Position numbers and translations under genes: made by a program | Part shown: piece by piece, positions 14,328 to 49,108 of the stretch | How the letters are laid out: each line of letters starts with the position of its first letter | Position numbering within the stretch: the first letter of the stretch is position 1 | Source: Escherichia coli | Lineage (GTDB): Bacteria; Pseudomonadota; Gammaproteobacteria; Enterobacterales; Enterobacteriaceae | Assembly: GCF_024700885.2 (NCBI RefSeq) | Contig: NZ_CP117016.1 | DNA: 64,000 bases | Reading direction: 5' to 3' (one strand) | The notes under the pieces: generated by a model | The model's input: the letters and a program-made list of their open reading frames with translations, nothing else | What the model was told of the DNA's origin: nothing | Database searches by the model: none

Positions 14328-14406
14328 CAAATCAGAACCACTCGCATGGCGGGTGGTTATCTGTTTCAGCCACGATGCGCCAGAAACAGACTAAAGTCAG
14401 AAAAGT

Positions 14407-14431
14407 AAAGGGCCGAATTTTCGGCCCTTTT
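14407..14431. terminator. Bidirectional rho-independent terminator shared by convergent atoB and gyrA
   Basis: Perfect palindrome AAAGGGCCGAA-TT-TTCGGCCCTTT flanked by an A-run on one side and a T-run on the other; 8 bp from the gyrA stop. Confidence 0.7.
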
Positions 14432-14438
14432 AACTTGA

Positions 14439-17075
14439 TTACTCGTCAGCGTCGTCTGCGACATCATCGTCGCTTTCCACTTCCGGAGCGATTTCATCGT
14501 CCCCTTCCGCGGCACTGCCATCGATGGTATCCAGATCTTCCTCGTCAACCGGTTCAGCAACACGTTGCAGACCCACTACGTTTTCATCTTCCGCAGTACG
14601 GATGAGGATCACGCCCTGGGTGTTACGACCTACGATGCTGATTTCCGAAACGCGAGTACGTACCAGCGTACCGGCATCAGTGATCATCATGATCTGGTCG
14701 CAGTCATCTACCTGCACCGCGCCAACCACTAAACCGTTACGTTCGGTAACCTTGATGGAGATAACCCCTTTCGTCGCACGCGACTTAGTCGGGTATTCCG
14801 CCACTGCGGTACGTTTACCATAACCGTTCTGCGTTGCGGTGAGGATTGCGCCATCGCCACGAGGCACGATCAGAGAGACGACTTTATCGCCTTCACCTAA
14901 GCGAATACCGCGAACACCGGTGGTGTTGCAGCCCATCGCACGGACAGAAGACTCTTTAAAGCGCACCACTTTACCTTCGGCGGAGAACAGCATTACTTCA
15001 TCTTCGCCGCTGGTCAGGTCAACGCCGATCAGCTCATCGCCTTCAACCAGTTTGATCGCCACTTTACCGGCGGTACGCAGACGGTTGAATTCGGTGAGGA
15101 CGGTTTTCTTAACAGTACCGTTAGCGGTCGCCATGAAGACTTTCACGCCTTCTTCAAACTCGGTCACCGGCAGGATCGCGGTGATACGTTCGTCCTGCTC
15201 CAGCGGCAGCAGGTTGACAATCGGACGACCGCGCGCGCCACGAGTGGCTTCCGGCAACTGATAGACTTTCATCGAATAGACGCGACCACGGCTGGAGAAG
15301 CACAGAATATGGTCGTGGGTGTTCGCCACCAGCAGTCGGTCAATAAAGTCTTCTTCTTTAATACGTGCGGCAGATTTGCCTTTCCCGCCACGACGCTGCG
15401 CTTCGTATTCAGAAAGCGGCTGATACTTCACGTAGCCCTGGTGAGAGAGCGTCACAACCACATCTTCCTGAGTGATCAGATCTTCCAGGTTGATGTCTGC
15501 GCTGTTGGCGGTGATTTCAGTGCGACGTTTGTCACCGAACTGTTCACGAACCAGTTCCAGCTCTTCGCGGATCACTTCCATCAGACGATCGGCACTGCCA
15601 AGAATACGCAGCAGTTCTGCGATCTGATCCAGCAGCTCTTTATATTCGTCGAGCAGTTTTTCGTGCTCAAGGCCGGTCAGTTTCTGCAAACGCAGATCCA
15701 GAATCGCCTGGGCTTGCTGTTCGGTCAGGTAGTACAGACCGTCACGCACGCCGAACTCTGGCTCCAGCCATTCCGGACGCGCAGCATCATCGCCCGCACG
15801 TTCGAGCATGGCGGCAACGTTGCCCAACTGCCACGGATTAGCAACCAGCGCAGTTTTCGCTTCTGCAGGCGTCGGCGCATGACGGATCAGTTCGATGATC
15901 GGGTCGATGTTCGCCAGCGCCACGGCTAATGCTTCAAGGATATGAGCACGATCGCGAGCTTTACGCAGTTCGAAAATAGTACGACGGGTCACCACTTCAC
16001 GGCGGTGACGAACAAACGCCGCGATGATGTCTTTCAGGTTCATGATCTTCGGCTGACCATGGTGCAATGCCACCATGTTGATACCGAAAGAAACCTGCAA
16101 CTGGGTCTGGGAGTAGAGGTTGTTAAGCACAACTTCACCGACCGCATCGCGTTTCACTTCAATCACGATGCGCATACCGTCTTTGTCAGACTCGTCACGC
16201 AGCGCGCTGATGCCTTCCACGCGTTTTTCTTTTACCAGTTCCGCAATCTTCTCGATCAGGCGCGCTTTGTTCACCTGATACGGAATTTCGTGGACGATAA
16301 TGGTTTCACGTCCGGTTTTGGCGTCAACTTCCACTTCAGCACGGGCGCGGATATATACCTTGCCGCGACCGGTACGGTAAGCTTCTTCAATACCGCGACG
16401 ACCATTAATGATTGCCGCCGTCGGGAAGTCCGGCCCAGGAATGTGTTCCATCAGCCCTTCAATGCTGATGTCTTCATCATCGATATACGCCAGACAACCG
16501 TTGATGACTTCCGTCAGGTTGTGCGGCGGGATGTTGGTTGCCATACCTACGGCGATACCGGAAGAACCGTTCACCAGCAGGTTAGGAATTTTGGTTGGCA
16601 TGACGTCGGGAATTTTTTCCGTGCCGTCATAGTTATCAACGAAATCGACCGTCTCTTTTTCGAGATCGGCCATCAGTTCATGGGCAATTTTCGCCAGACG
16701 GATTTCCGTATAACGCATTGCCGCCGCAGAGTCGCCGTCGATGGAACCGAAGTTACCCTGACCGTCTACCAGCATGTAACGCAGCGAGAATGGCTGCGCC
16801 ATACGGACGATCGTGTCATAAACCGCCAAGTCACCATGGGGATGGTATTTACCGATTACGTCACCAACGACACGGGCAGATTTTTTATAGGCTTTGTTCC
16901 AGTCATTGCCTAGTACGTTCATGGCGTAAAGTACGCGACGGTGTACCGGCTTCAGGCCATCTCGGACATCTGGCAGCGCACGGCCAACAATGACCGACAT
17001 CGCATAATCCAGATAGGAGCTCTTCAGCTCTTCCTCAATGTTGACCGGTGTAATTTCTCTCGCAAGGTCGCTCAT
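14439..17075 (-). CDS. gyrA: DNA gyrase subunit A, 878 aa, carrying Ser83Leu (quinolone-resistance-determining region)
   Basis: [21 protein letters not shown]...; residues 80-87 read HGDLAVYD (wild type HGDSAVYD); codon 83 is TTG at 16829-16827 on the minus strand; Asp87 unchanged. Confidence 0.97.
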
Positions 17076-17221
17076 CTAACCGCTATCCCTCTACTGTATC
17101 CCGGATTCAAAGGTCGCAAATTATAACACAGCCGCGCAGTTTGAGGTAAACCTATACGCTTTATTCACATCCAATGCCTGATATACTCGTTTGTCTTGCC
17201 AATTACGGAGTAGAAGTGCCA

Positions 17222-43109: not shown

Positions 43110-43280
43110 TTCGCTAAGAAAACGCTGACGCCTGAGTTCATTAAGCAGCAAATAGGCCGTGCTTTTAGGGATCCCCAATGTGTCAATGATCGTCGCAGCA
43201 CTACAGGGGCCAATGCGGGCAATCAAATTGAGAATATCAATAGCCCGTGTCAGGGCGGGAACTTTGCTTGATTCCAACAT
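43110..43280 (-). pseudogene. rhmR: N-terminal fragment of rhmR (IclR-type HTH), separated from the rest by the IS
   Basis: Encodes MLESSKVPALTRAIDILNLIARIGPCSAATIIDTLGIPKSTAYLLLNELRRQRFLS (IclR HTH), then reads into the IS end. Confidence 0.6.

Positions 43281-48136: not shown

Positions 48137-49107
<971 letters not shown>

Positions 49108-49108
<1 letters not shown>

What the first reader, a model, noticed from the sequence alone, without database searches (positions are those of the whole stretch)
16827..16829. gyrA carries the classic quinolone-resistance substitution Ser83Leu (TCG to TTG)
Translating gyrA from its ATG (minus strand, 17075) gives residues 80-87 HGDLAVYD. The wild-type E. 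coli quinolone-resistance-determining region is HGDSAVYD, so codon 83 has changed from TCG to TTG (plus-strand base 16828 is A rather than G). Asp87 is unchanged. Ser83Leu is the most common first-step mutation conferring nalidixic acid resistance and reduced fluoroquinolone susceptibility, so this chromosome is probably from a quinolone-exposed clinical isolate or a NalR laboratory derivative.
Basis: partly seen in the sequence, partly recalled or inferred. Interest (0 to 1): 0.8.

Follow-up and report, generated by a model that had tools for sequence, protein, structure and literature searches.

The report
Known gyrA Ser83Leu quinolone-resistance mutation
The DNA gyrase gene in this E. coli window does carry the textbook Ser83Leu quinolone-resistance mutation, but it is one of the commonest resistance mutations known and has already been published, with drug-susceptibility data, for this strain.

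Summary
gyrA lies at window 14439..17075 on the minus strand. Codon 83 (16829..16827) is TTG (Leu), plus-strand base 16828 is A, and Asp87 is unchanged.

The window matches E. coli MLI114 (NZ_CP117013.1) at 63,999 of 64,000 bases. MLI114 is an ST349, CTX-M-15 ESBL isolate from the stool of a soldier in Mali. Its paper (PMC10198576) already lists gyrA:p.S83L as the only quinolone determinant, with ciprofloxacin MIC 0.125 mg/L (S) and moxifloxacin 0.5 mg/L (R).

Eight genomes carrying the rare 878-aa gyrA form have TCG (Ser) at codon 83. Seven of them differ from the window only at that base and one synonymous site. Leu83 is therefore a derived C-to-T point mutation, not a lineage polymorphism.

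ParC (QRDR), ParE and GyrB of MLI114 are wild type, so this is a first-step, low-level mutant.

Exact 31-mer counts put S83L in about 2,294 of 5,061 typed complete E. coli genomes (45%).

Mechanism, from the literature: Leu83 disrupts the Ser83/Asp87-anchored water-metal ion bridge to the quinolone.

Verdict: real, correctly interpreted, already known, low interest.

The main side observation is that this lineage keeps the GyrA C-terminal tail typical of other Enterobacteriaceae and lacks the yfaP-yfaA island. Only 26 of 5,426 complete E. coli genomes share that arrangement.

The parts
14439..17075 (-). gyrA coding sequence (878 aa plus stop), DNA gyrase subunit A
   Evidence: ORF list. NCBIfam TIGR01063 gyrA at 1307.9 bits against a cut-off of 877. 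PDB E. coli GyrA chains match with E = 0. Identical to the annotated gyrA of MLI114, protein WP_143118939.1.
16827..16829 (-). Codon 83, TTG (Leu). Wild type is TCG (Ser). The changed base is plus-strand 16828 (A instead of G).
   Evidence: TCG is found in K-12 and in eight genomes carrying the 878-aa gyrA form: 1190, SW4848, JNE21-003, AST20, elppa4, GPEC856, 19AR0646 and N3.
16815..16817 (-). Codon 87, GAC (Asp), wild type. [quoted passage not shown]
16758..16877 (-). Quinolone-resistance-determining region (codons 67-106). Identical to K-12 in protein sequence except for S83L.
   Evidence: The QRDR boundaries are taken from general knowledge.
16710..16712 (-). Codon 122, the catalytic tyrosine of GyrA, intact.
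   Evidence: The residue's role is taken from general knowledge.
14439..14475 (-). The 3' end of gyrA, encoding the tail ...[12 protein letters not shown]. It differs from the K-12 tail ...DVDDEPEEE*. It is not part of the resistance mechanism but marks the rare allele background.

Best explanation
What it is: a chromosomal target-site quinolone-resistance mutation. A single C-to-T transition in codon 83 of gyrA (TCG to TTG) arose on the native gyrA allele of an ST349 E. coli. It replaces Ser83 with Leu in the quinolone-binding region of DNA gyrase subunit A.

[quoted passage not shown] The bulkier leucine disrupts that bridge, so quinolones stabilise cleavage complexes much less efficiently.

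Expected phenotype: Asp87, the ParC QRDR, ParE and GyrB are all wild type, and no plasmid-borne quinolone determinant is reported. The result is therefore a low-level, first-step phenotype. The ciprofloxacin MIC is about 8-fold or more above wild type but still in the 'susceptible' category. Moxifloxacin is categorised as resistant. Nalidixic acid resistance is expected but unmeasured.

Basis of each step: the sequence facts and the genome background are shown here. The MICs and the enzyme mechanism come from published work.
For: Sequence:
- TTG at codon 83 in the correct frame of a bona fide gyrA.

Derived state:
- Seven genomes with the same 2,637-nt allele differ from the window only at nt 248 (codon 83, TCG) and at synonymous nt 2397.
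- The 25 kb around gyrA is virtually identical (0-3 mismatches, judged from bit scores) in the closest S83L and Ser83 lineage genomes. This points to a point mutation in situ rather than an imported foreign allele.

Source and published phenotype:
- The window equals MLI114 at 63,999 of 64,000 bases.
- The MLI114 paper and its supplement list gyrA:p.S83L on chromosome CP117013. They give CIP MIC 0.125 (S) and MOX 0.5 (R), and describe the isolate as 'positive for gyrA S83L only'.

Other targets in MLI114:
- ParC differs from K-12 only by D475E, outside the QRDR. ParE and GyrB are identical to K-12.

Causality and mechanism from the literature:
- In isogenic MG1655, S83L raises the ciprofloxacin MIC from 0.016 to 0.38 mg/L with relative fitness 1.01 (PMC2714960).
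- Purified GyrA S83L gyrase shows strongly reduced ciprofloxacin-induced cleavage. Ser83 and Asp87 anchor the water-metal ion bridge. Leu acts by steric disruption, whereas Ala83 does not cause resistance (PMC9917921).
Against: - No resistance phenotype was measured here.
- Nalidixic acid was not among the drugs in the MLI114 paper's table.
- The sibling isolate MLI121 also carries S83L but was categorised as susceptible to both ciprofloxacin (0.25) and moxifloxacin (0.25). The clinical category is therefore borderline, although both MICs are well above the 0.016 mg/L of wild-type MG1655.
- The window is not base-perfect to the MLI114 record (one SNP, in arnC), so strain identity is 'MLI114 or an immediate sibling or assembly version'.
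Confidence: 0.97

Rival explanations
1. Leu83 is the natural residue of this divergent gyrA allele (878 aa, rare in E. coli). It would then be a neutral lineage polymorphism, not a selected resistance mutation.
For: The allele is unusual. Only 29 of 5,425 genomes are at least 99% identical, and only 26 share its 3' end.
Against: Seven genomes with the same allele encode Ser83 (TCG) and differ from the window only at that base plus one synonymous site: 1190, SW4848, JNE21-003, AST20, elppa4, GPEC856 and 19AR0646. N3, a more distant 878-aa allele, also has Ser. The wild-type lineage protein WP_001281252.1 is the majority form.
Confidence: 0.01
2. The T at codon 83 is a sequencing or assembly error.
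For: It is a single base. The window also carries one other base (49003) that differs from the RefSeq record.
Against: The base is identical in the RefSeq MLI114 record. It is also identical in the independent genomes JNE070796 and MS1685. The authors' own resistance-gene calls report S83L for both MLI114 and MLI121. The elevated fluoroquinolone MICs match.
Confidence: 0.005
3. The resistant allele was imported by homologous recombination from another, already resistant E. coli lineage, as described for ST1193. It would then not have arisen by point mutation within ST349.
For: Recombinational acquisition of mutant gyrA and parC alleles is documented in E. coli (abstract of PMC13127887).
Against: The allele is the lineage's own rare 878-aa allele with only nt 248 changed. 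A foreign donor would have brought the common E. coli gyrA form, whose 3' end only 26 of 5,426 genomes lack. Only 29 of 5,425 genomes have a gyrA at least 99% identical to this one. The flanking 25 kb is essentially identical to Ser83 lineage genomes. Transfer between ST349 members cannot be excluded.
Confidence: 0.02
4. The chromosome is a nalidixic-acid-resistant laboratory derivative of a K-12-type strain.
For: S83L is readily selected on nalidixic acid in the laboratory.
Against: gyrA differs from K-12 at 80 aligned positions. The flanks are about 97-98% identical to K-12, and the 9.5-kb yfaP-yfaA segment of K-12 is absent. The window matches a field isolate from Mali.
Confidence: 0.005
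5. The strain is a high-level fluoroquinolone-resistant multi-step mutant, and S83L is just one of several target mutations.
For: On the same codon-85 background, 1,371 of the 1,890 S83L genomes also carry D87N.
Against: Asp87 is wild type in the window. In MLI114 the ParC QRDR, ParE and GyrB are wild type. The ciprofloxacin MIC is 0.125 mg/L, and no qnr gene is listed for this strain. The single-mutant haplotype is itself common, with 412 genomes.
Confidence: 0.01

Closest known systems
E. coli gyrA S83L, the classic first-step QRDR mutation (for example the isogenic MG1655 derivative LM378 in PMC2714960, and purified GyrA-S83L gyrase in PMC9917921)
   Same: Same gene, same codon, same TCG-to-TTG change and same single-mutant genotype. 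The low-level ciprofloxacin MIC shift is of the same kind: 0.38 mg/L in LM378 and 0.125 mg/L in MLI114.
   Different: The allele background differs. It is an ST349-type gyrA with D678E, about 70 silent differences and an 878-aa C-terminal tail, against 875 aa in K-12. The host is a wild ESBL isolate.
Multi-step fluoroquinolone-resistant E. coli genotype: GyrA S83L + D87N + ParC S80I (for example LM693 in PMC2714960, MIC 32 mg/L)
   Same: It shares the first mutation of the pathway, on the common GTT85 haplotype.
   Different: D87 and ParC S80/E84 are wild type, as are ParE and GyrB. The MIC is about 250-fold lower.
GyrA S83A (seen in isolate MLI105 of the same study, and as a purified enzyme in PMC9917921)
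   Same: [quoted passage not shown]
   Different: Ala83 does not cause quinolone resistance in the enzyme assay, whereas Leu83 does, through steric disruption. The window has Leu.
Other ST349 / O166:H15 E. coli carrying WP_143118939.1 (JNE070796 and MS1685; JNE21-009 by inference from its score)
   Same: Identical GyrA protein, including S83L. Their gyrA DNA differs from the window only at synonymous nt 2397.
   Different: Different hosts and countries (Japan, human; USA, chicken). It is not known whether they share the mutation by descent or acquired it independently.

Membership tests
DNA gyrase subunit A (GyrA; NCBIfam TIGR01063, equivalog) | Whole-protein score above the curated cut-off, and better than the ParC models | tested here: met
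   TIGR01063 scores 1307.9 bits against a cut-off of 877. The Gram-negative ParC model scores 578.9, below its cut-off of 628.9. PDB E. coli GyrA chains match with E = 0.
DNA gyrase subunit A (GyrA; NCBIfam TIGR01063, equivalog) | Catalytic Tyr122 and an intact QRDR context (HPHGD-x-AVYD) | tested here: met
   Residue 122 is Y, and the QRDR (67-106) is identical to K-12 except at residue 83.
DNA gyrase subunit A (GyrA; NCBIfam TIGR01063, equivalog) | Conserved chromosomal context (ubiG divergent upstream) | tested here: met
   ubiG starts at 17174 (+), divergent from gyrA, as in K-12 and MLI114.
Target-site quinolone resistance mutation GyrA S83L | Leu codon at position 83 in the correct reading frame | tested here: met
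   TTG at 16829..16827 (-).
Target-site quinolone resistance mutation GyrA S83L | Ser is the ancestral residue on the same allele background, so Leu is a derived mutation | tested here: met
   Seven same-allele genomes, plus N3 and K-12, have TCG.
Target-site quinolone resistance mutation GyrA S83L | Reduced quinolone susceptibility of the carrying strain | not testable with these tools
   Literature only. MLI114 has CIP MIC 0.125 and MOX 0.5 (R), with no other determinant (PMC10198576). The isogenic MG1655 mutant shows a 24-fold rise in ciprofloxacin MIC (PMC2714960). Nalidixic acid was not measured.
High-level (multi-step) fluoroquinolone-resistant genotype | A second GyrA change at Asp87 | tested here: not met
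   Codon 87 is GAC (Asp).
High-level (multi-step) fluoroquinolone-resistant genotype | ParC S80/E84, ParE or GyrB QRDR substitutions | tested here: not met
   In MLI114, ParC residues 76-88 are PHGDSACYEAMVL, the same as K-12. ParE and GyrB are identical to K-12. These genes lie outside the window and were read from the matching public genome.
K-12 laboratory NalR derivative | K-12 sequence background around gyrA | tested here: not met
   gyrA differs from K-12 at 80 aligned positions. The yfaP-yfaA island is absent, and the flanks are 96.8-98.4% identical.

The most novel reading that the evidence does not exclude
The resistance mutation itself is not novel. The most novel reading still open has two parts.

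First, S83L may have arisen several independent times within ST349. Human isolates from Mali and Japan and a US chicken isolate all carry it, while close relatives from the same Japanese O166:H15 collection are wild type.

Second, the lineage's rare GyrA form might change the fitness or resistance effect of S83L relative to the K-12-type enzyme. That form has the C-terminal tail typical of other Enterobacteriaceae, and the yfaP-yfaA island is absent.

Nothing here tests either idea.
Probability: 0.05. Interest if true: 0.25.

Novelty: already known. Interest (0 to 1): 0.08.

Why it matters
The value is practical rather than scientific. The mutation marks this chromosome as a first-step quinolone-resistant ESBL E. 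coli. Such a strain is one or two further target mutations (GyrA D87N, ParC S80I) away from high-level fluoroquinolone resistance. In isogenic K-12 strains S83L and those added target mutations carried no measurable fitness cost (PMC2714960). The mutation also helps identify the window's source. It adds nothing new to the biology of gyrase or of resistance. The mutation, its mechanism, its prevalence and its presence in this strain are all already documented.

Tried and rejected
- I looked for the sibling genome MLI121 (CP117016), to see whether the window comes from it rather than from MLI114. It is not in the collection.
- I tested whether the one base separating the window from MLI114 (49003, in arnC) is a known lineage variant. 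No complete E. coli genome has it. The exact ArnC protein turns up only on two short metagenome or read-assembly contigs. The exact source record therefore remains 'MLI114 or an immediate relative or assembly version'.
- I considered whether Leu83 is simply the normal residue of a divergent allele. This was rejected using same-allele Ser83 genomes.
- I considered a K-12 laboratory origin and a multi-step resistant genotype. Both were rejected.
- I considered using the 25-kb flank to decide whether S83L in ST349 is clonal or recurrent. The flank is virtually invariant across the lineage, so it has no resolving power.
- The long plus-strand ORFs inside gyrA (15309..15929 and 15942..16913) are antisense to a highly conserved gene. 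I treated them as spurious.
- Efflux regulators (marR, acrR, soxR) and the plasmids of MLI114 were not inspected directly. For plasmid-mediated determinants I relied on the paper's resistance-gene tables.

Full report
**1. The observation**

- The minus strand of window 16700..17200 and the ORF list show an 878-codon ORF at 14439..17075 (-), starting at the ATG at 17075.
- Codon 83 occupies 16829..16827 and reads TTG. Residues 80-87 are HGDLAVYD (CAT GGT GAC TTG GCG GTT TAT GAC). Plus-strand base 16828 is A.
- The ORF is gyrA by every test:
  - NCBIfam TIGR01063 scores 1307.9 bits against a cut-off of 877.
  - E. coli GyrA PDB chains match with E = 0.
  - The RefSeq annotation of the matching genome calls it gyrA.
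- K-12 MG1655 gyrA has TCG (Ser) at codon 83 and HGDSAVYD.
- Asp87 is unchanged, Tyr122 is present, and the rest of the QRDR equals K-12.

**2. Where the window comes from**

- The gyrA sequence is 100% identical to E. coli MLI114 (NZ_CP117013.1).
- Window 1..37075 matches that record with zero mismatches.
- Window 34512..64000 matches it with one mismatch, at 49003.
- MLI114 is a CTX-M-15 ESBL E. coli, ST349 (Pasteur ST678). It was isolated from the stool of a European soldier with diarrhoea in Koulikoro, Mali.
- The paper's supplement lists 'gyrA:p.S83L' on chromosome CP117013.
- The text says MLI114 was 'positive for gyrA S83L only'. It gives a ciprofloxacin MIC of 0.125 mg/L (S) and a moxifloxacin MIC of 0.5 mg/L (R).
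- The finding is therefore already published for this strain, or for an immediate sibling or assembly version of it.

**3. A derived mutation, not a lineage polymorphism**

- This gyrA allele is rare. Only 29 of 5,425 complete E. coli genomes are at least 99% identical to it.
- Against K-12 it differs at 80 aligned positions. The protein differences are S83L, D678E and a different C-terminal tail.
- That raised the possibility that Leu83 is simply this allele's normal residue. It is not.
  - Seven genomes with the same allele carry TCG: 1190, SW4848, JNE21-003, AST20, elppa4, GPEC856 and 19AR0646.
  - They differ from the window only at nt 248 (codon 83) and at synonymous nt 2397.
  - They encode WP_001281252.1. 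The S83L form is WP_143118939.1.
  - N3, a more distant 878-aa allele, also has Ser83.
- S83L is shared with JNE070796 (O166:H15, Japan) and MS1685 (chicken, USA), both verified.
- JNE21-009 probably also carries it. This is inferred from its one-mismatch score.
- The surrounding 25 kb is essentially identical in mutant and wild-type lineage members.
- The simplest history is a C-to-T transition in situ. Import of a foreign resistant allele is excluded, because the allele is the lineage's own.

**4. How far along the resistance pathway the strain is**

- parC, parE and gyrB lie outside the window, so I read them from the MLI114 record and compared them with K-12.
- ParC differs only by D475E. 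Its QRDR, PHGDSACYEAMVL, has wild-type S80 and E84.
- ParE and GyrB are identical to K-12.
- The paper reports no qnr gene or other plasmid-borne determinant for this strain.
- This is therefore a single, first-step mutant.
- Published isogenic data agree with its phenotype (PMC2714960):
  - S83L alone raises the ciprofloxacin MIC of MG1655 from 0.016 to 0.38 mg/L (24-fold), with relative fitness 1.01.
  - The triple S83L + D87N + ParC S80I mutant reaches 32 mg/L.
- Nalidixic acid resistance is expected from general knowledge. It was not measured in the MLI114 study.

**5. Mechanism (literature, not tested here)**

- Ser83 and Asp87 anchor a water-metal ion bridge between the quinolone and E. 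coli gyrase.
- Purified GyrA-S83L gyrase shows strongly reduced ciprofloxacin-induced DNA cleavage even at 500 uM drug.
- S83A does not confer resistance. The authors conclude that the bulky leucine sterically disrupts the bridge (PMC9917921).

**6. How common it is**

I used exact 31-mers that cover codons 77-86. They are built so that any mismatch at codon 83 or at the third base of codon 85 abolishes the 28-base seed. Counts in 5,426 complete E. coli genomes:

| Haplotype | Genomes |
|---|---|
| Leu83 / GTT85 | 1,890 |
| Leu83 / GTC85 | 404 |
| Ser83 / GTT85 | 2,056 |
| Ser83 / GTC85 | 711 |

- S83L is therefore present in 2,294 of 5,061 typed genomes (45%). The remaining 365 genomes were not typed by these four probes.
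- On the GTT85 background, 412 genomes are S83L with wild-type D87, like this window. Another 1,371 also carry D87N.
- The collection is biased towards clinical and resistant isolates. Even so, the mutation is plainly commonplace.

**7. Verdict**

- The laboratory-derivative alternative is excluded. Quinolone exposure of this particular isolate is unknowable.
- The feature is already known at every level: residue, mechanism, epidemiology and this strain. Interest is low.

**8. Side observations**

*(a) GyrA tail and the missing yfaP-yfaA island*
- GyrA here ends ...[14 protein letters not shown] (878 aa). K-12 ends ...EVDVDDEPEEE (875 aa).
- Homology with K-12 breaks inside the last ~30-40 nt of gyrA and resumes just past the atoB stop codon. 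K-12's 9.5-kb yfaP-yfaA segment is absent, and atoB lies 111 nt from the gyrA stop.
- Only 26 of 5,426 complete E. coli genomes share this 3' end.
- The same tail, E[S/T][10 protein letters not shown], is found in Salmonella enterica subsp. arizonae, Citrobacter, Enterobacter, Kluyvera and Cedecea.
- It therefore looks ancestral, with the usual E. coli tail derived together with the yfa island.
- From memory, the acidic tail of E. coli GyrA modulates DNA wrapping and supercoiling. Both tail versions are strongly acidic, so I expect no functional difference.

*(b) Private variant in arnC*
- Window 49003 is A where MLI114 has G. No complete E. coli genome matches the window's 61-mer around it exactly; the 5,395 that match differ by at least one base.
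- The change is ArnC Met288Ile.
- The exact protein occurs on only two short public contigs.

*(c) Insertion element in rhmR*
- An ISEc46 (IS200/IS605 tnpA plus tnpB) sits between two fragments of the rhmR/yfaX regulator.
- No rhmD is annotated there.

*(d) A gyrA copy on a plasmid-labelled record*
- One gyrA copy in the collection, with S83L and D87N, lies on a record labelled as a plasmid.
- I did not follow this up.

Noticed in passing
window 14331..14475 (gyrA 3' end and the gyrA-atoB spacer): GyrA here is 878 aa and ends ...[13 protein letters not shown]-12 is 875 aa and ends ...DVDDEPEEE. The break in homology with K-12 lies inside the last codons of gyrA. K-12's 9.5-kb yfaP-yfaQ-yfaS-yfaT-yfaA segment is absent, so atoB sits 111 nt from the gyrA stop. 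Only 26 of 5,426 complete E. coli genomes have this 3' end. The same tail occurs in Salmonella arizonae, Citrobacter, Enterobacter, Kluyvera and Cedecea. It therefore looks ancestral, with the common E. coli tail derived.
   Followed up: partly
window 49003 (arnC, 48140..49108 +, codon 288): This is the only base in 64,000 that differs from the MLI114 RefSeq record: A instead of G, giving ArnC Met288Ile. None of the 5,395 complete E. coli genomes that match this 61-mer matches it exactly; each differs by at least one base. The exact protein is found only on two short metagenome or read-assembly contigs. It may be a private variant, an assembly-version difference or an error. MLI114 is colistin-susceptible according to the paper.
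   Followed up: partly
window ~41023..43280: An ISEc46 element lies between two annotated fragments of an HTH/IclR regulator (rhmR/yfaX). Its IS200/IS605 tnpA is at about 42617..43042 and its tnpB/InsQ at about 41391..42560. No rhmD (yfaW) gene is annotated between the regulator fragment and the rhmT-like MFS transporter. This suggests an insertion with an adjacent deletion. It is seen only in the RefSeq annotation of MLI114.
   Followed up: no
window 14679 (gyrA codon 799, third base): A synonymous ACT where every other sequenced member of the lineage has ACC. Within the complete-genome collection it is private to MLI114 and this window.
   Followed up: yes
window ~29824..30894: A CDS annotated in MLI114 as a frameshifted hypothetical protein (pseudogene). 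It lies between glpQ and a LysR-family regulator.
   Followed up: no
E. coli genome collection (not in the window): One gyrA copy in the collection lies on a record labelled as a plasmid. It carries the S83L + D87N haplotype. It may be a mislabelled or misassembled replicon, or a genuine second copy. The record was not identified.
   Followed up: no
MLI114 chromosome 744890..747148 (parC, outside the window; L009 29891..32149): ParC carries D475E relative to K-12. The change is outside the QRDR. S80 and E84 are wild type.
   Followed up: yes
window 15309..15929 (+) and 15942..16913 (+): Two long ORFs (206 and 323 aa) run antisense to gyrA. They are not annotated in MLI114. I regard them as chance ORFs on the opposite strand of a conserved gene.
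   Followed up: no
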